Shown: piece by piece, positions 4,222 to 42,262 of the stretch
Numbering within the stretch: position 1 is the first letter of the stretch
Layout: each line of letters opens with the position of its first letter
Sequence record: AP019559
DNA length: 64,000 bases
DNA from: Escherichia phage SP15
Direction: 5' to 3' (one strand)
The notes under the pieces: model-generated
Told to the model about the DNA's origin: nothing
The model's database searches: none
What the model saw: the letters and a program-made list of their open reading frames with translations, nothing else
Program-made: the position numbers and the translations under genes

Positions 4222-4473
4222 TTATAAAACAGCTTCCCATTTTTCGTTACGCTGGACAACCTTTACAACGTCGCCGGATTTAACGCGAACGCTAAAAACG
4301 GTTTTGCCGTTGTTACTACGTTCCGTTTCAGCGTATACCGCGTCGATTGTATCAAATGGCATAAGCGCCGCGCCTTTAATGCGTTCGGCCTTTCCGGTTA
4401 ATTCATCCGTTTTAGTAACGAAAGGAATAAAAACGGATTGACCAATTTTAGGCGTGGTAATAATGTTTTGCAT
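4222..4473 (-). CDS. hypothetical protein
   Basis: 83-aa ORF co-oriented. Confidence 0.5.
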   Translation of the reverse strand: MQNIITTPKIGQSVFIPFVTKTDELTGKAERIKGAALMPFDTIDAVYAETERSNNGKTVFSVRVKSGDVVKVVQRNEKWEAVL

Positions 4474-4671
4474 AGTATAAACTCCAAGTTATTTAGGGGA
4501 TTGTTCCGCATTACCTGCTAGAAAGTAGCAGGTAATAAGCAACAATCCGCTCGCCAATATAATCAATTTAAAGAACTCCACGCAGGCCGCTATATCCCAG
4601 TTAGGGGGCGGGGCACATTATGGTAAGTGCCGACCGTCAAATTTTATCAAATTATCGCTCTTATCGAACTG

Positions 4672-4960
4672 GGTACATCTTAAAGCCTATCGGCTAGGGT
4701 GTCAAACTATTTTTTGCAGTTTTTTATGGTTTTCCTTCAGGTCGATCATAATATTACGCCAGATCATTTCCAGACCTTGCTGGCGGCCTTTCTTGTACTG
4801 CGTGAATCGGTATTTTACCGATCTTTGCGCTACTGTCAACAAATTTTTTGTTTTGCTATCTAGTGCCTTGCTAGGCTTGCCAGTGATCAATAAAGTTTGT
4901 TTCATATCGTCGATTCCTTATAATGTATAAGTTTACCGCCGATAGGCTTTAAGATGTACC
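4672..4960. repeat. 22-bp perfect inverted repeat (4672-4693 / 4939-4960) flanking a 67-aa ORF
   Basis: GGTACATCTTAAAGCCTATCGG and its exact reverse complement, 245 bp apart. Confidence 0.8.
4702..4905 (-). CDS. hypothetical small basic protein
   Basis: 67-aa ORF lying exactly between the 22-bp inverted repeats. Confidence 0.4.
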   Translation of the reverse strand: MKQTLLITGKPSKALDSKTKNLLTVAQRSVKYRFTQYKKGRQQGLEMIWRNIMIDLKENHKKLQKIV

Positions 4961-5362: not shown

Positions 5363-5771
5363 TTATCCACTTGACTTTTATTTTCCAGTGGATAACTACT
5401 TATTTTATGAAATAAATTAATTGACTTTTATTTGTTAGTATGCATCGGAAGAATAGCAGACTAATAATTACTAGAATAATAATCATGCTGGTGGATTGTA
5501 ACGGCCTAAACTATCAGCAGACTATTAATCACGAAAAATCTCGTTAGCTAACTAACTATTTCATGATGTATAATATACATATAAATTAATGAGAAATAAT
5601 AATTATAATAAATAATAACTACAGTAAATAATAACTATAAGAAACTATCGGCCTAAGTGAGAACCACTATCATTTAAGTTATCCACAACGTTATCCACAG
5701 CACAAAATAATTTGACACGATAGGCGGCGATATAAGGGCTTATCCACAGACTTATCCACAGGTTATCCTAC
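5363..5771. promoter_or_regulatory. DnaA-box cluster A (six to seven TTATCCAC[A/T] 9-mers) with adjacent AT-rich low-complexity stretch
   Basis: Boxes at 5363-5371, 5387-5395 (opposite strand), 5679-5687, 5691-5699, 5740-5748, 5752-5760, variant 5763-5771; AT-rich tract about 5540-5640. Confidence 0.7.
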
Positions 5772-5786
5772 TGTATAAATATACAG
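5747..5786. repeat. left arm of a 40-bp inverted repeat (39/40 match with 9138-9177)
   Basis: Reverse complement of CAGACTTATCCACAGGTTATCCTACTGTATAAATATACAG recurs at 9138-9177 with one mismatch. Confidence 0.8.
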
Positions 5787-6053
5787 GGTAGAAAGGTAGT
5801 GTTAACAACTGCAATCAATTTTAAGCGGCCTAAAACGCTTTCTAACGAGCTAAATGCGGTGGGGTAATATTAAAGTAAAGCCTTCACCCGTCGCCCTGGT
5901 GGCTTCGCCGTGTTTTGCTCTTTATTGCACCGCTGCGCGGTTAGCATAAAACTAGGCGCTAGGCAAGGAAAATAAAAAGGTAAAATAATATTTGCCTATG
6001 TTAGAAAATTACCTTTATCATTCACTCACCGATTAACGAGGGAGGCCGAACAA

Positions 6054-7046
6054 ATGAGGCTATATAAACCAGATAACGCAACCGTCTTAAAAGGTGCGCT
6101 GCGTAACCTGCTGGACGGTAGCAGAACAACCAGCATCAAACATTTTGTTTTCAATATTGAAACTATTCATCAAAACTTTTTTGGTGATTATGATGCTTAT
6201 AATATGGATAGTTTTCTACCGTTATATAAACAAGGGGCAACGCTTGTTTTATATAATCAGGAATCTCACTTGCTTACTAGTCGAGGGCCAGATACTGATT
6301 TTATTTTAGTAAAAGGCAACACAGTAAAAGCCTATGATGCGGGGGCGGGCTTAGAAGTTTTCACAATAGAAAACTATGAGGCTAATGATAATGATCTTTA
6401 TGATGTAGAAAATTTTCTCGATTCATTTTGGCGTTATTTATCAGTTGGATGGAATCGATCAGATTATGACGGGTATCGTTTTGCGGCTGTAATGGCTTTT
6501 GATGATAACGGTAATTTTTTATTACCATCGGAATTATACCCGTATGTGCATAATGAGCTAGTACAAGAAGCGGGTTTTATTTTCTGGAAAGATGAAGATC
6601 AGATTATTGACAGCGTAGAAAACCATGCTGTAAATTCTAACACTCAAAGCGTTAAAACTCAAACTACTGAAAACAAAGGAAAAAACACCATGACCAAGAT
6701 CGCTAATATTGTTGCCGCTAATAAATCCGCTGTTGTAAACGCTGCAAAACTGGAAGCGGGTAAAATTGCACTGACTCAAATTACGAAAGTAGCGGCTAAA
6801 AAAGCACCGTTTATGATTAAAGGTTATATTGATACACCTATCGGTCGAGTAGTGATTGCCAACCTGCTGAGCGTAGCGGTTGACCAGTACGCCCCAAGTA
6901 ACCAAAAGGCGAAAGCGGTGGCAGGTGCAGCTATGGAAGCGGCTATGTTAGAAATGGTGCAAAGTTTTAACATCGCTGAGATGATTGATGAAATGGTAAA
7001 AGGTATTGATATTTCTACTTTTACCACTAGCACCGAAAGCGAGTAA
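6054..7046 (+). CDS. hypothetical protein
   Basis: 330-aa ORF; RBS GAGGGAGG upstream; first gene of the plus-strand cassette. Confidence 0.55.
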   Translation: MRLYKPDNATVLKGALRNLLDGSRTTSIKHFVFNIETIHQNFFGDYDAYNMDSFLPLYKQGATLVLYNQESHLLTSRGPDTDFILVKGNTVKAYDAGAGLEVFTIENYEANDNDLYDVENFLDSFWRYLSVGWNRSDYDGYRFAAVMAFDDNGNFLLPSELYPYVHNELVQEAGFIFWKDEDQIIDSVENHAVNSNTQSVKTQTTENKGKNTMTKIANIVAANKSAVVNAAKLEAGKIALTQITKVAAKKAPFMIKGYIDTPIGRVVIANLLSVAVDQYAPSNQKAKAVAGAAMEAAMLEMVQSFNIAEMIDEMVKGIDISTFTTSTESE

Positions 7047-33637: not shown

Positions 33638-33789
33638 TAAATTTATATTGCTGACTAGGATTTTCACCTAGACGGAGTTAGCACCGTAGCGTGTAGCGGC
33701 ATACCTCTCCAAACCGTGCCTCATCTTTCAATTACGGAGACAGTGTTCCTACGCGTGCCTGAATTGATTCAACAATTCTTCCAGCAAAT

Positions 33790-33865
33790 TGGACGACCGC
33801 ATGAGATTTGAACTCACATAAAAAGGATTTGCAATCCTTCGCCTAAGCCCTTCAGCCAACGGTCG
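33790..33865 (-). tRNA. tRNA-Cys (GCA)
   Basis: Hand fold: perfect anticodon stem AAGGA/TCCTT, loop TTGCAAA. Confidence 0.75.
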
Positions 33866-33934
33866 GTTTATCTTGTTCTGTCATGTTGCTTCTCCAGTTC
33901 AATTTATGTAATTATTATACAGAACTTTTGGAAA

Positions 33935-34207
33935 CTAAGCAACTACATTTTTTAAGAATTTGATGCCTTTCTTTTTCTTCTTATATTTCCACGTTAATGG
34001 ATTCTGTCGATTATGAACGCTTGAGATCTTTGTCTCGTCAAAGTTCTTCAATATCATGTAATCACAGGATAATTGTTCTAGTAGAATGTGATCACCGTCA
34101 AAAGCGTATACATAAGGCTGTTGACTAACACGATAATGATAGACTTTGTTAATTCTACGTTTCAGCGACTTATCAGCGCAGTAAATAAAGAAGTTTTCAG
34201 GATGCAT
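33935..34207 (-). CDS. hypothetical basic protein
   Basis: Track ORF 33935..34222 (TTG start) trimmed to the ATG at 34207 with AAGGAG RBS. Confidence 0.5.
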   Translation of the reverse strand: MHPENFFIYCADKSLKRRINKVYHYRVSQQPYVYAFDGDHILLEQLSCDYMILKNFDETKISSVHNRQNPLTWKYKKKKKGIKFLKNVVA

Positions 34208-34224
34208 CAGCAGCTCCTTCAATT

Positions 34225-34299
34225 TGGTGCACCCTGTTCGTATCGAACGAACCTCTCAAGCTCTTCAGGCAAGCGCTAATCCATCTCAGCTAAAGGTGC
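34225..34299 (-). tRNA. tRNA-Phe (GAA)
   Basis: Hand fold: U8-A9, D-stem GCTG/TAGC, loop CTGAAGA; two U-U mismatches in anticodon stem. Confidence 0.55.
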
Positions 34300-34305
34300 A
34301 AATTT

Positions 34306-34382
34306 TGGCAAACCTACTAGGACTCGAACCTAGACCGTACGGTTTTGGAGACCGACATGCTGTCCAGTAACACTCTAGGAAT
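34306..34382 (-). tRNA. tRNA-Trp (CCA)
   Basis: Hand fold: loop CTCCAAA, perfect T-stem; acceptor has two U-U mismatches. Confidence 0.55.
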
Positions 34383-34390
34383 GCAGAAAT

Positions 34391-34467
34391 TGGCGTCCTG
34401 TGCGGGGATCGAACCCGCAAATCCTACCTTGAAAGGGTAGTGACTTTACCAGTTTGTCTAACAGGAC
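34391..34467 (-). tRNA. tRNA-Glu (TTC)
   Basis: Hand fold: all four stems perfect, loop CTTTCAA. Confidence 0.85.
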
Positions 34468-34474
34468 TTAAATT

Positions 34475-34565
34475 TGGTGTTGGATGATGGAGTCGAACCA
34501 CCCGAGACCCTTCCGAGTCGGCAGATTTACAGTCTGCTTCGCTACCTCTACGATACTAATCCAAC
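34475..34565 (-). tRNA. tRNA-Tyr (GTA), class II
   Basis: Hand fold: perfect acceptor GTTGGAT/ATCCAAC, anticodon arm GCAGA-CTGTAAA-TCTGC, long variable arm. Confidence 0.75.
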
Positions 34566-34630
34566 ATATTTAGAAGTATTCAAAAATTCTCATTTAAACA
34601 CTTTTAAATATGTTTTCAAATTAGGTAACT

Positions 34631-34687
34631 ATTATACCAAGTTTTAAGGCACTGAGCAAGTCAAATTTTAAAGAACTTGCTCAGTGC
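34631..34687 (-). promoter_or_regulatory. early promoter for the tRNA cluster overlapping a 13-bp perfect inverted repeat
   Basis: Minus strand TTGCTC, 17 nt, TATAAT (34631-34659); inverted repeat GCACTGAGCAAGT 34649-34661 / 34675-34687. Confidence 0.55.
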
Positions 34688-34695
34688 TATATTAG

Positions 34696-34971
34696 TTAGT
34701 CGAACTTAGGAGTGACAGTTAAGGAGAACGGAAGTTCGAAAACTTCTTCACCCTCATTACTAACGGTAACTACACGACCTTTAAGTTCAGACATTAAAAT
34801 ATCAATATCAGCTTTTGCATCTGGAGCCATACCAGCTTCAACACATTTAGCTTTAACTTCCGGCAGAAGTTCGACATCGTAGAAATAAAGCCATTCAATC
34901 TCACCTTCCCAGCCTTCCCAGGATTTACAGATTGCACTTTCAATACCAGTTGCTACAACACGATTTTGCAT
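34696..34971 (-). CDS. hypothetical acidic protein
   Basis: 91 aa. Confidence 0.5.
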   Translation of the reverse strand: MQNRVVATGIESAICKSWEGWEGEIEWLYFYDVELLPEVKAKCVEAGMAPDAKADIDILMSELKGRVVTVSNEGEEVFELPFSLTVTPKFD

Positions 34972-35061
34972 TCGTTAACTCCTTCATCAATTTATACAAC
35001 TATTATATCAGAAATTTAAAGCAAAAGGCAAGTACATTTTTAAAAATTCTGTTTGGAGGAG

Positions 35062-35268
35062 CTAAACTCCAGATTCTTCAGCTAAGTCTAGGCTAATAAG
35101 AGTTATAGCCATAATTGCTGCACCGTGTTCTTTTTCTCCGGTGTTTTTAGCAGAGTCTATAATAGTCTTAATCTGTTCGTAATAGCCTTTTACTTCTTGT
35201 TCAATACCTGCCTCGGCTATCATGCCTTTAGTCATGATTCGTTGCATAGTAATTTCACGGTTAGCCAT
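35062..35268 (-). CDS. hypothetical protein
   Basis: 68 aa. Confidence 0.5.
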   Translation of the reverse strand: MANREITMQRIMTKGMIAEAGIEQEVKGYYEQIKTIIDSAKNTGEKEHGAAIMAITLISLDLAEESGV

Positions 35269-35428
35269 GATGTTTCTCCAGCTTCATTTTTAATAGTTTA
35301 CAAATGAAATCAACGTCTTCATCTGTACCTAGATCTCTATCTTCAAGAGTTGCCTTGAAGTTTTTAGTCAATTCCATGAGGATAACTTCTCTAGAACGAC
35401 GTGTTGGCGGAGGTGGATGTCTATACAT
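35261..35428 (-). CDS. hypothetical small protein (55 aa, below ORF-track cutoff)
   Basis: ATG with AAGGAAATAAG RBS; 8-nt overlap with the downstream gene. Confidence 0.35.
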   Translation of the reverse strand: MYRHPPPPTRRSREVILMELTKNFKATLEDRDLGTDEDVDFICKLLKMKLEKHHG

Positions 35429-35443
35429 CTTATTTCCTTAGTT

Positions 35444-35520
35444 TGGTAGGGGTGGTGGGATTCGAACCCACAAAACCTGAATTTTAAGTCCAGTACCTAT
35501 GCCAATTCGATTACACCCCC
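35444..35520 (-). tRNA. tRNA with anticodon TAA (Leu by anticodon) but class I architecture
   Basis: Hand fold: good acceptor and T-stem, loop CTTAAAA, 5-nt variable loop, discriminator A. Confidence 0.55.
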
Positions 35521-35527
35521 GTGTAGT

Positions 35528-35716
35528 TTAGTCAATTACTTTTGAGGCTTCAAGGTAGTCGATATAGTGTATGTTTTCTACCGTAATCATATAATCTGTC
35601 ACTTTATCCATAGCTTGGGCTTCAGAGGTAGCTCTGGCTAACCTATATCCTTTTTTATATTCATCCGGGTATTCTCTATCTTGGATAAACACAACATAAA
35701 CTATATATAGATCCAT
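35528..35716 (-). CDS. hypothetical protein
   Basis: 62 aa. Confidence 0.5.
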   Translation of the reverse strand: MDLYIVYVVFIQDREYPDEYKKGYRLARATSEAQAMDKVTDYMITVENIHYIDYLEASKVID

Positions 35717-35735
35717 TTGTGACCTCTATTTAATT

Positions 35736-35813
35736 TGGTGGCTCCCCGAGGATTCGAACCTACGTACCTTCCGGTTATGAGCCGGGTGCTCATACCATAT
35801 GAGCTTGAGAACC
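35736..35813 (-). tRNA. tRNA, anticodon CAT (third copy)
   Basis: Hand fold: perfect D-stem GCTC/GAGC, loop CTCATAA; weak T-stem. Confidence 0.5.
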
Positions 35814-35819
35814 AGAATT

Positions 35820-35908
35820 TGGCGGAAGAAGCGGGAATCGAACCCACAAGGCTATATTTCAAACCGACAGATTAGCAATCTGCTGCAATACCGTTATGCT
35901 ATTCTTCC
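35820..35908 (-). tRNA. tRNA-Ser (GCT), class II
   Basis: Hand fold: perfect acceptor GGAAGAA/TTCTTCC, loop TTGCTAA, long variable arm. Confidence 0.75.
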
Positions 35909-35929
35909 GAATTTATAAGATATATTATA

Positions 35930-36448
35930 TTAGAAATTTAGCTTCATAGCAAGAAAATTTTTCAAGTTTTCGGTAGACATCTCATCCACATCTACGGGAG
36001 AAACAAAGCCGTTTAATTTTCTAGCAAATTTTTCACCCGCAGGATCATTATCTCCGACAGCTACCAATTTAAAAGGTAGTAATTTCAGTTGCTTTAATAA
36101 CGCTTTTCCTGGAGAAGAACCCAACATTGCTAGGGCTGGATAACCAGCATTATGTAACGCAACTGCCTTAAATACAGATTCAGCAATCAATACTACTTTT
36201 TCATCTCCATTGAGAGTTTCTAGTCCCCATACACACTGGGTAGTAGAATAAGTAAAGTATTTAGCTTCAAAGGGGCACTTACCATGACCTTTTGGAGCAG
36301 AAGGATTATAAGTTTGATAGCCCCTCAACATCCCAGAGAAGTCATACAACGGGACTGTTAGCCATCCTTCCGGACTTAACCAGCAATGATATTTATCTGT
36401 ATCAAATCCTCTAGATAAGAGGTGCTGTGTTAGCTCATCAACATTCAT
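35930..36448 (-). CDS. TOPRIM-domain protein (small primase or nuclease-like)
   Basis: Track ORF 35930..36499 trimmed to the ATG at 36448 (AAGAGGAA RBS); conserved Glu in 'LIAESVF' and 'VGDNDPAGE' DxD motif. Confidence 0.5.
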   Translation of the reverse strand: MNVDELTQHLLSRGFDTDKYHCWLSPEGWLTVPLYDFSGMLRGYQTYNPSAPKGHGKCPFEAKYFTYSTTQCVWGLETLNGDEKVVLIAESVFKAVALHNAGYPALAMLGSSPGKALLKQLKLLPFKLVAVGDNDPAGEKFARKLNGFVSPVDVDEMSTENLKNFLAMKLNF

Positions 36449-36623
36449 ATTTGGTTCCTCTTTCAAATTTATAGATATATTATACAGAGAATTTAGCATT
36501 CAAGCAATCAAATTTTTTAACTTTTTAGAGGAAAATCATAGGGCACTTAAGGATAGCAGATAAGTGGTGAGGACCAAAATTTGTGACCCCACTAAAAATT
36601 CAGGGGCAATTTTTAAAGACCCC

Positions 36624-36652
36624 TTGACATTTTCGCTGGGGTAGTGTAAAGT
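36624..36652 (+). promoter_or_regulatory. sigma70-type promoter for the plus-strand three-gene module
   Basis: Consensus TTGACA, 17-nt spacer, TAAAGT. Confidence 0.55.
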
Positions 36653-36713
36653 ATATGTTATGGATGAGTGATCAAAGAGACACACATTTTCTATATACTA
36701 GGAGGTGTCAAAA

Positions 36714-37697
36714 ATGACAGAAGAAGTAGCTAAGAGTCCTGAGACCGTCGCTAGCGTTGCAGCAGAACTGCACCGTCACGAGGAATCAGATAAGAAAAAG
36801 TGGGAGAAGGTCAGAGCCTACGAAGAAAAACATCGTGAACACGATGATGAAGAAGATGACGATGAACATTGTCATAAATATGGAAAACATAAAATGCAAG
36901 AACCAGTAAACGTATTTACTAGTGGCTTCCCTGGCCTACTGGGTGGTTACCCAGCAAACGCAGGTGCTTTCGGTGGTGAAGGTATGGGACTATTCGGAGC
37001 TATCCTAATCGGTGCTCTATTAACAGGCGGATTCGGTGGTTTCGGTGGATTCGGTGGACGTGGTGTAGTTGGTGATGGTACCGCAGTTGATGCAGTACTT
37101 CAGAACCAAGATACCGCTAGTATTCTAGCAGCTATTAACACTACTCGTACAGAAGCTAACCAGGGTACTGGAGCTGTTTTAAGCGCAGTTAACAATGGGT
37201 TTAGCCAGACATCCCAAAACCAGAGCCGTGATACTCAGTCTGTACTAACTACGATCTATGGTACAGGTGCTAATCTGTCTAATCAGATCTGTCAGGAAAC
37301 TCGCAACGTTATTCAGGGTCAGTTCGATCTTTCTCGCCAGATTGATCAATCTTTCGCAGCTAATCAGATAGCTCGTGCACAAGATAAGTTTGATTCTGCA
37401 CAGATCGCTTTCCAGCAGACTTTACAAACTAATAACCAGTTTGCCGCTGTTCAGGCTCAGATGTGTGCTAACCAGAACTCTCTGGAACGTCAGATCGCTG
37501 AATGTTGCTGTGAACTTCAGACTGCTATCGCTGGTGTAACTACTGCTCGTATTCAGGATGAGTTAGATGCATGTCGCCTACGTGAAGCAATCGCTGCGGG
37601 TAACGGTGCTAACGGTCAGGTAATTAATCAAATCGCTGTAAGTCTTGGTGCTATCACTCAGACTCTGGCTGGTCTGCAGGCTAAACTGCCGGCTTAA
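36714..37697 (+). CDS. glycine-zipper membrane protein with long Q/N/A/T-rich helical domain
   Basis: Track ORF starts at a GTG at 36705; ATG at 36714 has AGGAGG 8 nt upstream; 'GGFGGFGGFGG' hydrophobic Gly-rich segment; 'CCC' near the C-terminus; host-like codon usage. Confidence 0.6.
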   Translation: MTEEVAKSPETVASVAAELHRHEESDKKKWEKVRAYEEKHREHDDEEDDDEHCHKYGKHKMQEPVNVFTSGFPGLLGGYPANAGAFGGEGMGLFGAILIGALLTGGFGGFGGFGGRGVVGDGTAVDAVLQNQDTASILAAINTTRTEANQGTGAVLSAVNNGFSQTSQNQSRDTQSVLTTIYGTGANLSNQICQETRNVIQGQFDLSRQIDQSFAANQIARAQDKFDSAQIAFQQTLQTNNQFAAVQAQMCANQNSLERQIAECCCELQTAIAGVTTARIQDELDACRLREAIAAGNGANGQVINQIAVSLGAITQTLAGLQAKLPA

Positions 37698-37718
37698 TAT
37701 TAAGGGGAGGAGCCCATT

Positions 37719-38135
37719 ATGAGTAAATATGGTTTTGTAAATAACGGACTTAATCAAAGTATGGGCTCCCAGCAGCCCATTCCGGGTCTGGATAACCCCT
37801 ACTTACAACAATTGCAACAGCGTTTAGCAGAAGCGCAACAGATGCAACAACAACTCCAGCAAAACCCTGGAAGTGTGAGTCCTATGCAAATGATGCAGCA
37901 AATGAGCGGGCAGTCGCAAATGCCTCAACAAATGCAGCAACAGATGCCGCAGCAGCAAGTTCAGCAGCAAACCCAACAACCGCAGGTTTCTGCGGAAGGA
38001 CAGGCAGTACTAGCCCTTTTCGAAGACTTCACAAAGACAGAGGATGGGAAGCAGCTTGTATCACTTATGGGTAAGTTTAATAGCTTCTGCCAAAGCCAAG
38101 TTGCAAAAGCTCAAAATGGTGGTAATAACTCCTAA
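37719..38135 (+). CDS. Gln-rich low-complexity protein
   Basis: 138 aa with poly-Q/M stretch; RBS GGGGAGGAG. Confidence 0.55.
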   Translation: MSKYGFVNNGLNQSMGSQQPIPGLDNPYLQQLQQRLAEAQQMQQQLQQNPGSVSPMQMMQQMSGQSQMPQQMQQQMPQQQVQQQTQQPQVSAEGQAVLALFEDFTKTEDGKQLVSLMGKFNSFCQSQVAKAQNGGNNS

Positions 38136-38144
38136 GGAGAAATT

Positions 38145-38339
38145 ATGTGTTGCAGAAAACCTGTTTCGTGCTGCCCAATGCCTGTAGCACGTTGTTGCTC
38201 TCCAGCAATGTTTACACAAATACCGGCGTTCAATCCCTTTGCCTTTAAGCCTACTCTTATCCTGCCCCCTAGAGTAGATTTTCAGTCAAGATTGGCCTCC
38301 CGTATGGGTGGTTGCTGTACACCGAGAGTGTGGTTCTGA
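38145..38339 (+). CDS. Cys-doublet-rich small protein
   Basis: 64 aa with four CC doublets; RBS AAGGAGA. Confidence 0.5.
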   Translation: MCCRKPVSCCPMPVARCCSPAMFTQIPAFNPFAFKPTLILPPRVDFQSRLASRMGGCCTPRVWF

Positions 38340-38354
38340 AGAACCAAACAATAA

Positions 38355-38390
38355 AGCCCCTAGTCGAAAGACTTAGGGGCTTTTCTGTAT
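38355..38390 (+). terminator. Rho-independent terminator
   Basis: 11-bp stem with one bulge around a GAAA loop, followed by TTTTCTGTATTT. Confidence 0.65.
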
Positions 38391-38394
38391 TTAA

Positions 38395-38436
38395 GATAAA
38401 AGAAAAGCCCTGCGCTCTCCAGGGAACGCAGGGCTT
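38395..38436 (-). terminator. Rho-independent terminator for the SPFH gene
   Basis: 10-bp stem AAGCCCTGCG/CGCAGGGCTT; on the minus strand followed by TTTTCTTTT. Confidence 0.65.
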
Positions 38437-38459
38437 ACTTCAGATGTTACATGCGGATA

Positions 38460-39407
38460 TTATTTATTACGCATATCCATGATCATTTGACCATCGTAGC
38501 CAGTACCTACCACAGTCTGTGGTACACCACCTTGATATTTCTGAGCACGAATCATTTCGACTTCCAGTTGTTTCCAACGAATCATCTCAGGAGTAATGGT
38601 ACGTTGCAGTGCGGCGTTAGCTTCAGCTTCTTTCTTAGCTGCGTACAGTTTAGCATCTGCGTCACGTTCATTAGCGATAGCTTGGTTGTTGCGAGCTTCA
38701 CGATCTGCTTCTGCTTGTTTAACTTTTTGCTGTGCTTCCTGTTCAACACGAGCTAATTCAGCTTTAGCAGCATTAACCTGTTCTTCACGAACTTTGGTAT
38801 TCTGTACCTGTTCCATGATTACCGGTGGCAAAGTAATATCCTGAAGGAATACCTGCTTAACTGTGTAACCATATGGGCGTGCATACTCTTCAACTTCCTG
38901 TTGAATTGCAGTTTGCAATTGAGCCTGAATTTTAGCATCAAACAAATCTTGTGCTTTAGGTACAGACTTACCAAACTCACGAATAGTAGACAGTAATTTT
39001 TCAGTTACATATTTGTCTAACGCTTGATCCTGAGTACCTGCGTTAATACGGTTAATTGGTGCCTTAGAACCATCAAACTGCAACATAACAGTCAGGTCAA
39101 CAGTGGATTTAAACTTATCCTGGCTAGGAACCTGAAGTTTATCTAATTTTACAGCAATATCTTTTGTACTAAAAGTGTCGAAAGATGCAAATGGGTTTAC
39201 AAGATGGAAACCTGGTAATACTGGGTTAGGATCTACTTTACCCAGAAATGTTTGGGTTTTAACCGTACCATCAGAAACAATAGTATATGAATTAAAGGCT
39301 AGAATCAAGCCTGCTAAACCAACTACAGCACCAATACCCCAACGTTTAATAGTACGAATTACTTTCTGCTCAGAAGTCAGTTCTTTCATATTTTTAGTAT
39401 TAAACAT
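38460..39407 (-). CDS. SPFH/band-7 (stomatin/prohibitin/HflK-C-like) membrane protein
   Basis: N-terminal transmembrane helix, central SPFH-like region, C-terminal A/E/Q-rich coiled-coil; host-like codon usage. Confidence 0.7.
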   Translation of the reverse strand: MFNTKNMKELTSEQKVIRTIKRWGIGAVVGLAGLILAFNSYTIVSDGTVKTQTFLGKVDPNPVLPGFHLVNPFASFDTFSTKDIAVKLDKLQVPSQDKFKSTVDLTVMLQFDGSKAPINRINAGTQDQALDKYVTEKLLSTIREFGKSVPKAQDLFDAKIQAQLQTAIQQEVEEYARPYGYTVKQVFLQDITLPPVIMEQVQNTKVREEQVNAAKAELARVEQEAQQKVKQAEADREARNNQAIANERDADAKLYAAKKEAEANAALQRTITPEMIRWKQLEVEMIRAQKYQGGVPQTVVGTGYDGQMIMDMRNK

Positions 39408-39441
39408 ATATTTCCTTTGTTTTAGTTACAGTTAATAAAAT

Positions 39442-39516
39442 TGGCCGAGGTGACAGGATTCGAACCTGCATAAAGGAATTTAGAAGACTCCTGCCTCTCC
39501 CTTAGACTACACCCCG
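39442..39516 (-). tRNA. tRNA-Arg (TCT)
   Basis: Hand fold: acceptor CGGGGTG/CACCTCG, loop CTTCTAA, discriminator G; isolated from the main cluster. Confidence 0.7.
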
Positions 39517-40018
39517 TTTAAATATTTTTAAGAACTCTCGTAAAAACTCTTAAAAATACAGACGATACCGGGAGAGTCATAAGTCTCACTCATTAAGTAT
39601 TTCAAGACAAAATACAGTAACGTCTATTATTTTCCAGTTTAAGTCAGGGTGACTTAGTGGTTAGGTCCTGCGGTATATTGAGGACTCGGTTAGGCTTGGG
39701 GTCATGACTTCCCGCCTTTTGCTGCTACTCAACAGGAGTTATCGCGAATTACCTGTGCTATTGTGCACCATTAGTGACATCTCTCATGTCAGCATTTCCC
39801 ACTTTGTGGATAGCTTGAAAAACTACTCCGATATGGAGAAAAAACTTCACTATCCTAGAATACCTTCTAAAGTTCTTCTTTAGCCTGGACATAGTTAAAT
39901 CGTAATAAAACTATTCAGCAGACTGGTTGGTTAGCCTGGAACCAACTACCGCGTGGTTTAGGCAGTGCGCAACTAACCTCGGAAGCTTTTACGTTAAAAG
40001 CATCAGTTATCCAGTTCT

Positions 40019-40090
40019 TACCGACCGTAGGATTCGAACCTATATCTTCCACCAGTTACGGCTTGATAATACCAATTATACTAGGACGGC
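40019..40090 (-). other. degenerate tRNA-like element inside an ~800-bp non-coding region
   Basis: Acceptor-like pairing GCCGTCC/GGTCGGT and T-arm TAGG-TTCGAAT-CCTA; no canonical anticodon arm. Confidence 0.35.
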
Positions 40091-40328
40091 AGTGTTACTA
40101 CATAAGTGATTTCCACACCCCACTATTTATAAATTAGAGAAGAGTTTAGGGGAGAGGTTTCAGACGCCTCATTTTACACGTTCTAGCCACTAACCGGGAT
40201 TGCCGCCCCCTGTGTACTAGTTTTACAACTAACCTACCGACTCTATTCAACGAATCTTAGTGCTCGACGCATCTTACATTAAGACAAGTTCAGCGTAATC
40301 GGCTCGCTGTTCTCTAATTTATGAATAT

Positions 40329-40357
40329 ATTATACAGAATTTATAAGCATTTAGCAA
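40329..40357 (-). promoter_or_regulatory. T5-type early promoter reading into the non-coding leader, tRNA-Arg and the SPFH gene
   Basis: Minus strand TTGCTA, 17 nt, TATAAT. Confidence 0.55.
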
Positions 40358-40365
40358 ATAAATTT

Positions 40366-40809
40366 TTAATTAAATTCACCAGCAATCTGAGCAGCAGTAC
40401 CACCATCATAACGCCCAGGAAATTCTTCCTTAATCGCTTTCATCAGCATACCTTTTGTAATTCCAGGGTTTAGCTTAACTAATTCTGCAAAGTATTTACG
40501 AATCTCAGTATCAGATAACTGAGGGGGCAGATACTCCTGCAACCACTTATTTAGAATGTACTCATACTGAGCGGACTGCAAGCTATAACTATCAAGATCT
40601 TGACCATGAAGTTTAGCTTTCATCTGGTTAATGCTTTTTAGTTGAGCTTTGAGATAAGACACAAATTGTTCAGAAGTGATGAAATCTTTATTAATACGCT
40701 GAAGATCCCCGATTATGGTCTGATAGCTTTTAGCGACTTCTTTATCAGAACCATTAAACTTAGAATCCTGCAAAGCTCTACGCAAAACATCTAAAATATT
40801 CTCTTCCAT
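40366..40809 (-). CDS. hypothetical protein (possible GatB/YqeY-like domain)
   Basis: 147-aa ORF; weak similarity impression at the C-terminus. Confidence 0.45.
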   Translation of the reverse strand: MEENILDVLRRALQDSKFNGSDKEVAKSYQTIIGDLQRINKDFITSEQFVSYLKAQLKSINQMKAKLHGQDLDSYSLQSAQYEYILNKWLQEYLPPQLSDTEIRKYFAELVKLNPGITKGMLMKAIKEEFPGRYDGGTAAQIAGEFN

Positions 40810-40979
40810 TATTTCATTCCTAACGCTTGGTTAAAAGATTGTTCTGTCATAACTGCTGAGACTTTGGCGAAATCAAACTTTTTAGGGTTCGTAGTGATCT
40901 CAGCAACGTTAGAAGTTTTAACAATTTTCGTAGTACGAATACCGCGAGTGTTAACACCAATAATTACAACTGATTTCAT
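40809..40979 (-). CDS. hypothetical small protein (56 aa, below ORF-track cutoff)
   Basis: ATG with GAGGAAG RBS; TAATG stop-start overlap with the downstream gene. Confidence 0.4.
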   Translation of the reverse strand: MKSVVIIGVNTRGIRTTKIVKTSNVAEITTNPKKFDFAKVSAVMTEQSFNQALGMK

Positions 40980-41047
40980 ATTTCGCTTCCTCTCATTAAT
41001 TTATGGAAGTATTATACGGAAATTTAAGTATTTAAGCAAGTAAATTT

Positions 41048-41515
41048 TTAAGTTTTAGTGACAACAGGTTTATAAAACGTATGTCCCTTAATCTTAGTTG
41101 TTTTCTTAAACTTCTTTGTCCAGTAAGGTTTATCTTTACCACTATGGAAGTATAGTGCTCCATGTGTAGGATCTTGTGGTAAATCAACGTAGTATATCAC
41201 TCTAGCTAAATTCTTAGCGGTTTGCCAAGCCTCATCAGTTTTATCAACTTTTGGTCTCTTAGATACCCAAGAGAACTGGTTAGACTGATATACTACTTTA
41301 CAGTAGGAATCTGGGAATTTACCGGAGTTTACACGGTTTTTAGTAACGTGTGCAATCGCCGTCATTCCCTTTATGCCCTCACCACGACTTTCGAAATAGA
41401 TATTTTTAGCAATGCAATCTATTTCTTTTGCATCGTGCGATGCCTGACTACTAAAGCTGAAGGTAAGGGCAGCTACTAAAAGCAAAGCTGCCTTCATTCT
41501 TTTTACTCCTGCCAA
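41048..41515 (-). CDS. secreted cell-wall hydrolase, SleB/CwlJ-like
   Basis: Signal peptide; 'FESRGEG...AIAHVTKNRV...VVYQSNQFSW' resembles the cell-wall hydrolase family. Confidence 0.6.
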   Translation of the reverse strand: MAGVKRMKAALLLVAALTFSFSSQASHDAKEIDCIAKNIYFESRGEGIKGMTAIAHVTKNRVNSGKFPDSYCKVVYQSNQFSWVSKRPKVDKTDEAWQTAKNLARVIYYVDLPQDPTHGALYFHSGKDKPYWTKKFKKTTKIKGHTFYKPVVTKT

Positions 41516-41820
41516 TCATATTCAACACGATTGGGGTTTTCTTTGTACCCTAAGTCAAGCAAATCATTACGCATATGTTGCTTAGCTACTGGGTTCGAGG
41601 TTACTAGTACCACTTTCTTTGGTCTCTGCCCAAATTCTAAGAGTAAACGAAGAATTTGATAACCTTCCATACCATCTACAGCCAAGTCATTATCCATATA
41701 AACGAAGTGGCCTGTGGTATCAGTTTTATTCAGAAACTCGACAGCGGCTTCTGGGGTTCGAATGATAATGTCCATTCCGTGAAGATTACGCACATCATCA
41801 ATCAAAATATGAAAAGTCAT
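41503..41820 (-). CDS. hypothetical protein (possible receiver-like fold)
   Basis: 105-aa ORF; assignment weak. Confidence 0.45.
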   Translation of the reverse strand: MTFHILIDDVRNLHGMDIIIRTPEAAVEFLNKTDTTGHFVYMDNDLAVDGMEGYQILRLLLEFGQRPKKVVLVTSNPVAKQHMRNDLLDLGYKENPNRVEYDWQE

Positions 41821-42262
41821 AATAGCCTCGTTTCATCAATTTAAAAATATATTATACAGATAACTTAGTAAATTAGCAAATACATTTTTAAATTGTGAAA
41901 CTAGTAAACCGATAAACAGCCTAGAGGCGCCACAGGCCATATCTTATGAGCCATGTACCTTTGATCTAGGGTTTGAATCATCAACGAATACTTTGCATCT
42001 TTTAGCTTTAGAAGTTTAGAAGTTTGAGTTCTTTAAACTTTTCAGCTTTCATACTTAAATGTTGATCTTTGAAGTTGTGTCGGTAATATCAACGACGCTT
42101 TGTTCTTACGTGTCAGCTTAAAAGGCTGGTGTAATAAACATAATCTCCAATAGATTATACTTTATAGTATGGTCAGCGGTCTTATTTAACCTCGTATTTC
42201 AACCGCTGCTGCGAGGTAAGATGCTTGGGCTTTCGTCTACCGATTTACTAGCTTTTAAATTA

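What the first reader, a model, noticed from the sequence alone, without database searches (positions are those of the whole stretch)
39517..40365. ~800-bp non-coding leader with palindromes and a tRNA-like remnant upstream of tRNA-Arg and the SPFH gene
An early promoter at 40329-40357 reads into a long region with no convincing ORF, containing palindromes (GTCAGGGTGAC, GTCATGAC), an imperfect inverted repeat (GGTTGGTT / AACCAACT) and a degenerate tRNA-like element, before tRNA-Arg and the SPFH gene. That is unusually long for a compact phage genome and may encode a structured regulatory RNA or an origin.
Basis: seen in the sequence. Interest (0 to 1): 0.5.

Follow-up and report, generated by a model that had tools for sequence, protein, structure and literature searches.

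The report
Giant structured RNA heading T5 tRNAs
The 'empty' 800 bases encode a large, intricately folded non-coding RNA (the forgotten 'RNAX' of phage T5) that is conserved across T5-like phages and resembles, in lifestyle but not in sequence, the giant phage RNAs GOLLD and ROOL whose function is still unknown.

Summary
Window 39517-40365 has no conserved ORF, a strong sigma-70 promoter (40329-40357, minus strand), a tRNA-like element (40019-40090) and the palindromes described.

The window is a T5-like phage. The stretch is the homologue of 'rnaX/RNAX, stable RNA with unknown functions' annotated in the T5 reference genome. I found no paper on it and it matches no Rfam family.

It is an ~806-nt RNA of the minus strand (40322 to 39517). 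It abuts tRNA-Arg(UCU), so RNase P cleavage should form its 3' end.

Homologues of 639-1291 nt occur in more than 500 phage records from at least five genera of Demerecviridae, always ahead of tRNA-Arg(UCU) at the head of the tRNA island.

Two conserved cores show strong covariation: 95-96% of cells paired against 25-44% in slid controls, 21/39 and 26/36 pairs with compensatory changes, 0/500 shuffles. The tRNA-like module sits on a covarying helix and has a non-canonical anticodon arm.

The origin, decayed-tRNA and small-ORF readings are rejected. Function is unknown. By annotation, the T5 st0 deletion removes the region, so it is dispensable in the laboratory. The closest analogues are GOLLD and ROOL.

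The parts
40329..40357 (-). Early sigma-70-type promoter (-35 TTGCTA at 40352-40357, -10 TATAAT at 40329-40334). Equivalent to T5 promoter P16-17.
   Evidence: Consensus scan, 10/12 matches. Annotated as a promoter in T5 records. Conserved in all homologues.
39517..40322 (-). RNAX-family non-coding RNA, ~806 nt. Predicted +1 at 40322; 3' end set by the 5' end of tRNA-Arg.
   Evidence: 93% identical over 81% of the query to T5 misc_RNA rnaX. 40 distinct homologues of 639-1291 nt. The ends are inferred, not mapped.
40310..40322 (-). P1 helix, 5' strand (AUAAAUUAGAGAA). Starts at +1.
   Evidence: Inverted repeat I1, 21 nt, 90% complementary. Compensatory variants in Eos, Yersinia and Pectobacterium phages.
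40129..40141 (-). P1 helix, 3' strand (UUCUCUAAUUUAU). Closes the optional 5' domain.
   Evidence: The helix is kept even where the enclosed domain is deleted (T5, L046) or swapped (L047).
40142..40309 (-). Optional 5' domain. Hairpin CAGCG-AGCCGAUUA-CGCUG (40291-40309) whose loop CCGAUU (40297-40302) can pair with AGUCGG (40237-40242) as a pseudoknot. Conserved UAAACUCUUCUC follows.
   Evidence: Variant table: CAGCG/CGCUG changes to CAGCA/UGCUG, and loop CCGA with UCGG changes to CAGA with UCUG, in the Proteus and Pectobacterium phages. The domain is absent in T5 and replaced by an HNH gene in L041. The pseudoknot was read by eye and not quantified.
39951..40127 (-). Core-1: a multi-helix junction. 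P2 (GUGG 40120-40123 / CCAC 39953-39956); three-segment P3 (40097-40110 / 40002-40015) carrying the tRNA-like module; P4 hairpin (39985-40001); P5 hairpin (39961-39978).
   Evidence: RNAalifold recovers the helices independently: 32 pairs, 19 with compensatory changes. Counts: 95.4% paired against 30-44% slid, 21/39 pairs changed on both sides against 0-6, 0/500 shuffles. CM R1 scores 205 bits here and finds the Proteus phage at E=4e-17.
40019..40090 (-). tRNA-like module: acceptor, D and T arms, GGUUCGAAUCC T-loop, and a non-canonical 'anticodon' arm (3-bp stem, 6-nt loop GUAACU). No encoded CCA. Its ends continue into helix P3.
   Evidence: Rfam tRNA 28.3 bits here and 30.5-38.3 bits in the Klebsiella, T5 and Pectobacterium homologues. 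Stems covary; the anticodon arm varies in length and sequence; it is replaced by another hairpin in STG2 and the Proteus phage.
39806..39950 (-).
   Evidence: Poorly conserved and length-variable among lineages. No covariation analysis was done.
39632..39805 (-). Core-2: closing helix P6 (AGUGG 39799-39803 / CCACU 39656-39660), P7 hairpin (39775-39791), P6b (39767-39770 / 39687-39690), P7' hairpin (39732-39756), P8 (39692-39717), P9 hairpin (39665-39685), P10 hairpin (39642-39654), conserved AAACUGGAA (39632-39640).
   Evidence: CM R2 realignment: 96.2% paired against 25-44% slid, 26/36 pairs changed on both sides against 4-9, 0/500 shuffles. That alignment is fitted to the model.
39702..39709 (-). 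Invariant apical loop AGUCAUGA (palindrome UCAUGA), presented by the covarying helix P8.
   Evidence: GAGTCATGACC is invariant in every aligned homologue, and GTCATGAC is also present in the Proteus phage. The flanking helix has at least 7 different complementary versions. Loop-loop duplex -5.4 kcal/mol; alternative pairing with P10 -9.7 kcal/mol.
39517..39631 (-). 3' domain: P11 (AUAGACG 39621-39627 / CGUCUGU 39558-39564) enclosing two hairpins (39597-39615 and 39574-39591) joined by CUUAAU, then terminal hairpin P12 (39522-39559) and a 5-nt tail.
   Evidence: P12 is the most conserved block. It was used as the scan pattern, giving 30 viral and 6 metagenomic loci, and has a U-A to C-G covariation. 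The two inner hairpins differ in sequence in each lineage but remain hairpins (by eye).
39442..39516 (-). tRNA-Arg(UCU) with encoded CCA. Its 5' end abuts RNAX, so RNase P cleavage here should create the RNAX 3' end.
   Evidence: ARAGORN; Rfam 49.3 bits. tRNA-Arg(tct) is the first tRNA downstream of RNAX in every genus where the downstream stretch was held.
38405..39407 (-). Rest of the transcription unit: SPFH/Band_7 gene (38460-39407) and an intrinsic terminator (38405-38436).
   Evidence: Pfam Band_7, 64 bits. Terminator scan. Annotated as bidirectional terminator ter1 in T5.
40366..40809 (-). Upstream neighbour: a 147-aa YqeY-like protein (annotated 'tRNA amidotransferase'). Context only.
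   Evidence: Pfam YqeY 25.4 bits, below the cut-off of 27. Adjacent to RNAX from T5 to the Proteus phage, but not immediately upstream in Klebsiella Sugarlandvirus, where a transglycosylase gene sits there and only 3 Klebsiella-named records hit the protein by tblastn.

Best explanation
The region encodes a member of the 'RNAX' family, a large (~806 nt here) multi-domain structured non-coding RNA of T5-like phages.

Shown:
- It is homologous to the RNA annotated in T5 as a stable RNA.
- It is non-coding.
- It is conserved across at least five genera.
- It folds into two covariation-supported multi-helix cores. One carries a tRNA-like module. The other presents an invariant palindromic loop.

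Inferred:
- It is transcribed early from the P16-17 promoter as the head of the tRNA-island transcript.
- RNase P cleavage at tRNA-Arg(UCU) releases it.
- It is stable because both ends are locked in helices: P1 begins at +1, and P12 lies 5 nt from the 3' end.

Most likely mode of action (inferred, low confidence): it acts in trans as an RNA scaffold or particle, as GOLLD and ROOL do. It may self-associate through the invariant UCAUGA loop, and it displays a tRNA-shaped domain that could engage tRNA-binding host or phage factors. It would be an accessory function, dispensable in laboratory growth, in a genome region rich in counter-defence functions.
For: Identity:
- blastn finds 536 phage records, including T5 'rnaX: RNAX' with promoter P16-17.
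- RefSeq note: 'stable RNA with unknown functions'.

Non-coding:
- ORFs are at most 60 aa and are not conserved in place or frame.
- 1-nt indels occur within them.

Structure:
- Core-1: RNAalifold finds 32 pairs, 19 compensatory. Counts are 95.4% paired, 21/39 pairs changed on both sides, 0/500 shuffles, slid controls 30-44% paired with 0-6 pairs.
- Core-2: 96.2% paired, 26/36 pairs, slid controls 25-44% with 4-9 pairs.
- P1 and the 5' pseudoknot have compensatory variants.
- G-U pairs alternating with A-U, for example A2 columns 19/164 and 28/155, show that the minus-strand transcript is the selected molecule.

Conservation:
- The cores are 83-87% identical where the neighbouring gene is 72% at the DNA level and 59% at the protein level.
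- CM R1 detects the Proteus Novosibvirus copy at E=4e-17 in the same synteny.
- tRNA-Arg(tct) is the next tRNA downstream in every genus where the downstream stretch was held.

Analogy: ROOL and GOLLD are phage-encoded, often near tRNA islands, 600 to more than 800 nt, sometimes contain tRNAs, have a variable 5' and conserved 3' part, and use conserved palindromic kissing loops (PMC12286853).

Dispensability and context:
- The T5 record places the st0 deletion at 33667-41882, which encloses RNAX at 40848-41566.
- tRNA-region deletions in T5 are viable, and the region carries anti-PARIS and anti-retron functions (PMC11464382; PMC10644984).
Against: - No transcript data were available here. 'Stable RNA' rests on a GenBank note whose primary evidence I could not find.
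- The 5' and 3' ends are predicted only.
- Whole-molecule folding energy is not unusual (z = -0.39).
- The palindromic loop is invariant, so it cannot show the covariation that would prove an intermolecular contact. It could instead pair within the molecule with P10 (-9.7 against -5.4 kcal/mol).
- Rfam GOLLD and ROOL models do not match.
- The tRNA-like module is absent at the homologous site in STG2 and the Proteus phage, and the 5' domain is absent in T5. So neither can be the sole active part.
- Module order differs in the Proteus phage.
Confidence: 0.62

Rival explanations
1. Cis-acting leader. The long structured 5' region exists to control processing, stability or timing of the tRNA-Arg(UCU)/tRNA-island precursor and the downstream SPFH gene, and has no function once cleaved off.
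For: It is always immediately upstream of and co-oriented with tRNA-Arg(tct) at the head of the tRNA island. No terminator lies between the promoter and the tRNA. In the window, two RNAX segments are 82-87% complementary to the D-arm region of tRNA-Arg (I2 and I3).
Against: The RNAX architecture is the same in front of two unrelated tRNA-Arg(UCU) sequences, so the complementarity is not conserved. ORFs of 160-169 aa are inserted at its 5' edge (L041, after the promoter) or between it and the tRNA (L023, bobsandoy) in some phages without loss of the cores. 640-1290 nt with more than 15 covarying helices is far more than known tRNA leaders need. T5 annotators recorded it as a stable RNA.
Confidence: 0.2
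2. tRNA mimic or decoy. The essential part is the tRNA-like module, displayed to sequester a tRNA-directed host nuclease or defence system, or a tRNA-processing or tRNA-binding protein. The rest is scaffold.
For: The module keeps covarying acceptor, D and T arms and a perfect T-loop, while its anticodon arm is free to vary and no CCA is encoded. T5 tRNAs are known to counter PARIS and retron Eco7, and an anti-retron gene lies nearby. A YqeY-like (GatB-tail-like) protein is encoded next door in most genera.
Against: The module is replaced by a plain hairpin at this site in STG2 and the Proteus phage, although the Proteus phage has a T-arm-like sequence elsewhere. The most conserved blocks are outside it: GGGGUGUcGAA, GAGUCAUGACC and P12. 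The YqeY match is below Pfam's cut-off, and the gene is not the upstream neighbour in Sugarlandvirus. This reading is compatible with, and partly contained in, the best explanation.
Confidence: 0.12
3. Replication origin or another DNA-level element, with the palindromes acting as protein-binding sites or cruciforms.
For: A long non-coding stretch with several palindromes in a compact genome.
Against: Compensatory changes include many G-U to A-U alternations, which are meaningful only in the minus-strand RNA. There are no iteron arrays and no AT-rich block; G+C is 0.37-0.43 against 0.31-0.37 in the flanks. By annotation the region lies inside the viable T5 st0 deletion.
Confidence: 0.02
4. Decaying tRNA genes and/or unannotated small protein genes. 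Many GenBank records annotate hypothetical proteins and 'tRNA-OTHER/Sec/Ser' in this stretch.
For: One tRNA-like hit. ORFs of 34-60 aa exist. Depositors annotated them.
Against: Only one segment resembles a tRNA, and it is under purifying selection with covariation. No ORF is conserved in position or frame, and frameshifting indels occur between close relatives. The cores are more conserved than the adjacent protein gene.
Confidence: 0.03

Closest known systems
Bacteriophage T5 'RNAX' (gene rnaX, T5s08; NC_005859 40848-41566; AY734508)
   Same: Homologous sequence (93% identity over 81% of the query) in the same place: P16-17 promoter, then RNAX, tRNA-Arg, the SPFH gene and terminator ter1. 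The window's RNA is a member of this family.
   Different: T5 itself lacks the ~170-nt 5' domain (only helix P1 remains) and carries a tandem duplication of the P10 element with an ~82-nt insert. The T5 record gives only 'stable RNA with unknown functions'. I found no structure, family description or Rfam entry.
[quoted passage not shown]
   Same: Phage or prophage-encoded, often more than 800 nt, often beside tRNA islands, sometimes with a tRNA inside. Less conserved 5' part and conserved 3' part. Conserved palindromic kissing loops. Function unknown (PMC12286853). RNAX shares the size range, phage origin, position at a tRNA island, an embedded tRNA-like module, an optional 5' domain and an invariant palindromic loop.
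   Different: No match to the Rfam model at E<=10 in the window or E<=1 in six relatives. Different helices and motifs. Host range is Enterobacterales T5-like lytic phages. Multimerisation is untested.
ROOL RNA (Rumen-Originating, Ornate, Large)
   Same: ~600 nt, encoded by phages and prophages near tRNA islands. Abundant but non-essential. Forms RNA-only cages through kissing loops, including a conserved symmetric one. RNAX is likewise dispensable (st0 deletion, by annotation) and of similar size in its minimal 639-nt form.
   Different: No Rfam match. No evidence yet for assembly. RNAX contains a tRNA-like domain.
tRNA (Rfam RF00005) and embedded tRNA-like domains such as those of bacterial Y RNA (YrlA) or tmRNA (own knowledge)
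   Same: Acceptor, D and T arms with a canonical GGUUCGAAUCC T-loop. Homologues score 30.5-38.3 bits on the tRNA model.
   Different: The anticodon arm is a 3-bp stem with a 6-nt loop here and is of arbitrary length elsewhere. No CCA is encoded, whereas the neighbouring tRNA-Arg encodes it. The flanks pair with each other (P3), so the ends are not free. The window copy is below the gathering score (28.3 against 29). No YrlA or tmRNA model hit.
Stable RNAs of unknown function co-transcribed with phage tRNA clusters, such as T4 species 1 and 2 RNAs and T5 RNA I/III (own knowledge; T5 'RNA3' appears in the title of AY734508)
   Same: Phage-encoded stable RNAs processed from tRNA-cluster transcripts.
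   Different: Those are about 80-140 nt. RNAX is 5-10 times larger and multi-domain.

Membership tests
T5 RNAX family | Sequence homology to T5 rnaX | tested here: met
   93.1% identity over 81% of the query to AY734508 rnaX. 99% identity to other Tequintavirus genomes.
T5 RNAX family | Same genomic position: after the P16-17 promoter and directly before tRNA-Arg(UCU) and the SPFH gene | tested here: met
T5 RNAX family | Accumulates as a stable RNA in infected cells | not testable with these tools
   Only the RefSeq note 'stable RNA with unknown functions'. No expression data or paper found.
tRNA (RF00005) | Reaches the Rfam gathering score or is called by a tRNA finder | tested here: inconclusive
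   Window copy 28.3 bits against 29 and not called by ARAGORN. Homologues score 30.5-38.3 bits and are called tRNA-Ser(act) or Leu(tag), inconsistently.
tRNA (RF00005) | 5-bp anticodon stem with a 7-nt loop that presents an anticodon | tested here: not met
   GCC-GUAACU-GGU here. 6-bp stem with 5-nt loop in the Yersinia phage, a long arm in L077/L079, GUACC...GGUAC in the Pectobacterium phage.
tRNA (RF00005) | Free 5' and 3' ends with a 3' CCA (encoded in the neighbouring phage tRNA) | tested here: not met
   The 3' flank is AAGA, not CCA. The flanks form covarying helix P3. tRNA-Arg next door encodes CCA.
GOLLD / ROOL (Rfam models) | Match to the family covariance model | tested here: not met
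   No hit at E<=10 in window 38000-42000. No hit at E<=1 in six homologues, including the 1.25-1.29-kb Klebsiella forms.
GOLLD / ROOL (as a kind) | Large (over 600 nt), covariation-supported ornate structure, phage-encoded, beside a tRNA island | tested here: met
   639-1291 nt. Covariation. Position at the head of the tRNA island. Descriptions of GOLLD and ROOL in PMC12286853.
GOLLD / ROOL (as a kind) | Homo-oligomeric RNA-only assembly through kissing loops | not testable with these tools
   Only a candidate: the invariant palindromic loop AGUCAUGA on covarying P8.
Replication origin | Iterons or initiator boxes plus an AT-rich unwinding element; essential in cis | tested here: not met
   No repeat arrays. 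G+C is higher than the flanks. By annotation, inside the viable st0 deletion. Initiator-box motifs were not searched specifically.
tmRNA | tRNA-like domain formed by the two ends plus a tag reading frame | tested here: not met
   ARAGORN finds no tmRNA in the window. No Rfam tmRNA hit in the region.

The most novel reading that the evidence does not exclude
RNAX is a third, independently evolved class of self-assembling giant phage RNA. It would multimerise through its invariant UCAUGA loop into a particle that displays tRNA-shaped domains, and it would serve the tRNA island, for example by trapping tRNA-directed host defence nucleases or tRNA-handling factors. Because it lives in phage T5 and E. 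coli, the function of this whole kind of RNA would become genetically testable.
Probability: 0.17. Interest if true: 0.9.

Novelty: new variant of a known kind. Interest (0 to 1): 0.68.

Why it matters
GOLLD and ROOL are among the largest bacterial and phage non-coding RNAs. They form cages larger than a ribosome, yet no function is known, and their hosts are hard to work with.

RNAX has the same hallmarks in the classical model phage T5 and in hundreds of T5-like phages of E. coli, Salmonella, Klebsiella, Yersinia, Pectobacterium and Proteus. It is large, ornate, phage-encoded, at a tRNA island, carries an embedded tRNA-like module and a conserved palindromic loop, and is dispensable in the laboratory. 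Deletion mutants, defence-system panels and biochemistry already exist for these hosts.

If it belongs to the same functional kind, the open question of what these giant phage RNAs do becomes directly testable.

There is also a practical point. Many deposited genomes of therapeutic T5-like phages annotate spurious 'hypothetical proteins', a 'putative tail protein' and 'tRNA-OTHER/Sec/Ser' inside this RNA. A covariance model would correct those annotations.

Tried and rejected
- Thermodynamic test of the whole 809-nt strand: z = -0.39, uninformative.
- Naive all-against-all covariation scans on global MAFFT alignments were swamped by G-U noise and misalignment. I replaced them with block-wise alignment, RNAalifold and covariance-model realignment.
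- mafft-qinsi was not installed.
- MAFFT alignment A3 of core-2 was out of register for the divergent lineages, so model R2 was used instead.
- Exact-pattern scans: IMG/VR gave only about 30 isolate T5-like genomes. Metagenomes gave 6 loci, all close relatives.
- The GTDB genome scan gave 16 hits, about the ~17 I estimated by chance. Twelve lie in one conserved Clostridia protein gene. R1 and Rfam reject them.
- Vibrio phage pVp-1 tRNA island: R1 hits only true tRNAs, so no RNAX is detectable there.
- The SPFH protein is not a useful marker because T4-like phages share it.
- Origin of the tRNA-like module from a particular window tRNA: the best match is 51 of 72 positions, no better than among tRNAs generally.
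- Complementarity of RNAX to the tRNA-Arg D-arm: not conserved with the second tRNA-Arg type, so treated as chance.
- A YqeY protein as dedicated partner: the Pfam score is below the cut-off and linkage is not universal.
- Literature: nothing found on RNAX in 8 million papers and preprints.
Full report
**What the window is.** The window is a T5-like phage (Tequintavirus). The query stretch is 99% identical to Escherichia phage FFH_1, NBEco001 and others, and 440 phage records match by megablast. It carries 23 tRNA genes on the minus strand.

**Layout of the finding.** The finding lies on the minus strand between a 147-aa YqeY-like gene (40366-40809) and tRNA-Arg(tct) (39442-39516). The tRNA is followed by an SPFH/Band_7 gene (38460-39407) and an intrinsic terminator (38405-38436).

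**Checking the observation.**
- The promoter TTGCTA-17-TATAAT at 40357-40329 is the only good minus-strand promoter match in 2.8 kb.
- The longest ORFs between it and the tRNA are 34-60 aa.
- Rfam finds a tRNA-like match at 40019-40090 just below threshold, 28.3 against 29 bits, and nothing else credible.
- The folding energy of the whole strand is unremarkable (z = -0.39), so a single sequence could not decide the matter.

**It already has a name.** A sensitive blastn finds 536 phage records. One is a T5 record in which the homologous stretch is annotated misc_RNA 'rnaX: RNAX', 719 nt, preceded by 'promoter P16-17' and followed by tRNA-Arg.
- The same record places the st0 deletion at 33667-41882, which encloses RNAX at 40848-41566. 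On that annotation the RNA is dispensable for growth. That st0 is a viable, widely used strain is my own knowledge.
- Other deletions in the T5 tRNA region are described as non-essential (PMC11464382).
- I found no paper that mentions RNAX. No Rfam family covers it in the window or in six relatives.

**Distribution.** I collected 40 distinct homologues, from the predicted +1 to the 3' hairpin. They are 639-1291 nt long and 54-95% identical between lineages.
- They come from Tequintavirus, Epseptimavirus, Sugarlandvirus (Klebsiella) and Hongcheonvirus (Pectobacterium).
- A covariance model also finds the element in Novosibvirus (Proteus).
- In every genus where the downstream stretch was held, tRNA-Arg(tct) is the first tRNA downstream, and the element heads the tRNA island.
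- Exact-pattern scans found nothing beyond T5-like phages in IMG/VR, metagenomes or 185,579 species genomes.
- The Vibrio T5-like phage pVp-1 has none detectable.

**It is not coding.** No ORF keeps its place or frame across lineages. Close relatives differ by single-base indels inside the longest ORFs. Lineages differ by large insertions and deletions at fixed points. The conserved cores are 83-87% identical where the adjacent protein gene is 72% identical at the DNA level and 59% at the protein level.

**It is structured: core-1 (39951-40127).** On a plain MAFFT alignment of 29 distinct sequences, RNAalifold predicts 32 pairs, 19 with compensatory changes. These are the same helices I had read by eye:
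- closing helix P2 (GUGG/CCAC, becoming UACGG/CCGUA in the Pectobacterium phage and AUGG/CCAU in bobsandoy);
- a three-segment helix P3;
- the acceptor and T stems of the tRNA-like module;
- hairpin P4.

Counting my 39-pair structure gives 95.4% of cells paired against 30-44% when partners are slid. 21 pairs have changes on both sides against 0-6 in the slid controls, and 0 of 500 shuffles reach the observed values.

**It is structured: core-2 (39632-39805).** A model built from 12 in-register sequences realigned the divergent lineages. Counts are 96.2% paired against 25-44% slid, and 26 of 36 pairs with changes on both sides against 4-9, with 0/500 shuffles. That alignment is fitted to the model, so it leans towards the structure. 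Independent by-eye variants are shown.

**Strand.** Pairs that alternate between G-U and A-U show that the selected molecule is the minus-strand RNA.

**Anatomy, 5' to 3'** (one search gives coordinates).
- Helix P1 starts at +1 and closes an optional 5' domain. That domain is deleted in T5, swapped in other phages, and replaced by an HNH endonuclease gene in one. It contains a hairpin whose loop can pair downstream as a pseudoknot, with a compensatory change in two genera (read by eye).
- Core-1 is a junction of P2, P3, P4 and P5. P3 carries the tRNA-like module at its tip through an internal loop. The module's ends are therefore not free.
- The module's anticodon arm is non-canonical and variable, and it has no CCA. 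At this site the module is replaced by a plain hairpin in Salmonella phage STG2 and the Proteus phage.
- Core-2 is a second junction. GAGUCAUGACC is invariant in all aligned homologues, and GUCAUGAC is also present in the Proteus phage.
- The 3' domain ends in the most conserved block, hairpin P12, 5 nt before tRNA-Arg.

**How it probably works.**
- Shown: homology to an RNA annotated as stable; non-coding nature; multi-genus conservation; covarying architecture; linkage to the head of the tRNA island.
- Inferred: early transcription from P16-17; release of the 3' end by RNase P at tRNA-Arg; stability because both ends are in helices.
- Function is not known.

The closest analogues are GOLLD and ROOL. 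They are phage-encoded RNAs of 600 to more than 800 nt, often near tRNA islands. GOLLD has a variable 5' and conserved 3' part and sometimes a tRNA inside. ROOL is abundant yet non-essential. Both form RNA-only cages through kissing loops that include conserved palindromic ones (PMC12286853).

RNAX shares each sequence-level hallmark but fails their Rfam models. It would be an independent class of the same kind, not a member. The invariant UCAUGA loop is a candidate self-association site (-5.4 kcal/mol). It could equally pair with P10 within the molecule (-9.7 kcal/mol). In the Pectobacterium phage P10 is replaced by CAUGACU, which would give 7 bp to the loop.

The surrounding T5 region carries counter-defence functions: tRNA-Lys against PARIS, tRNA-Tyr and Rad against retrons. 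A tRNA-shaped decoy role is therefore plausible but untested.

**Rivals.**
- A purely cis-acting leader is not excluded, but it fits poorly. The architecture is independent of which tRNA-Arg follows, ORFs are inserted in some phages, and the RNA is very large.
- An origin is contradicted by strand-specific covariation, the lack of iterons or AT-rich DNA, and dispensability.
- Decayed tRNAs or small genes are contradicted by the selection pattern.

**Verdict.** It is a forgotten, uncharacterised giant structured RNA family in a classical model phage. My confidence that it is a structured RNAX-family RNA is about 0.95, that RNase P releases it about 0.7, and in the GOLLD/ROOL-like scaffold or decoy mechanism about 0.2-0.3.

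Noticed in passing
L041:3988-4470 (IMGVR_UViG_2974662754): An HNH_3 homing-endonuclease gene (160 aa) sits directly after the RNAX promoter and replaces helix P1 and the 5' domain. Core-1 follows at 4472-4702. MN197465 (Salmonella phage 2-3) also has an HNH gene under the match. The RNA gene appears to be a landing site for homing endonucleases.
   Followed up: partly
L023:4444-4953; L100:500-1009 (bobsandoy): A 169-aa ORF with no Pfam match is inserted between the RNAX 3' hairpin and tRNA-Arg in some Epseptimavirus genomes. Yersinia phage R2-01 has an even longer unannotated insert there.
   Followed up: partly
L002 (T5) and L088: T5 itself lacks the 5' domain of RNAX. It carries a tandem duplication of the element AGUCACCUUGACUUAAACUGGAA separated by an ~82-nt insert.
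   Followed up: no
L101:5470-6245 (Proteus phage VTCCBPA139): The order of RNAX modules differs. The GUCAUGAC loop (~5958-5975) and a T-arm-like GGUUCGAGUCC (~5767-5785) lie upstream of core-1 (6020-6163), which there lacks the tRNA-like module.
   Followed up: partly
window 39485-39508 versus 39570-39586 and 40143-40157: Two RNAX segments are 82-87% complementary to the D-arm and anticodon-stem part of the adjacent tRNA-Arg. The complementarity is not kept in genera with the other tRNA-Arg type, so it is probably chance.
   Followed up: partly
tRNA-Arg(tct) downstream of RNAX in 14 loci: Two unrelated tRNA-Arg(UCU) sequence types (CGGGGUGUAGUCUAAGGGAG... and GCUUCCUUAGCUCAGAGGAU...) occupy the same position in different genera. 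The tRNA has been replaced while RNAX stayed.
   Followed up: no
L055:2363-2531 and L053:325-504: Model R1 gives ~35-bit hits spanning the whole model over tRNA-Arg plus its flanks in the Pectobacterium and Klebsiella phages. This is higher than its partial hits on other tRNAs and is unexplained.
   Followed up: no
window 40809-40979 (-) and 40366-40809 (-): The gene upstream of the YqeY-like gene encodes a 56-aa DUF7616 protein (110 bits). The 'tRNA amidotransferase' label of the 147-aa protein rests on a sub-threshold YqeY match (25.4 against 27 bits) covering only its C-terminal third.
   Followed up: partly
public records (e.g. ON637170, OR896834, MZ501108, MH370386): Depositors annotate 'hypothetical protein', 'putative tail protein', 'tRNA-OTHER', 'tRNA-Sec' and 'tRNA-Ser' inside the RNAX region. 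These are probably artefacts of gene callers running over a non-coding RNA.
   Followed up: partly
L105-L113, L115, L117 (Clostridia MAGs): The core-1 search pattern matched 12 times within one conserved Clostridia protein-coding gene (open frame on the opposite strand). This is a coincidence unrelated to RNAX.
   Followed up: yes
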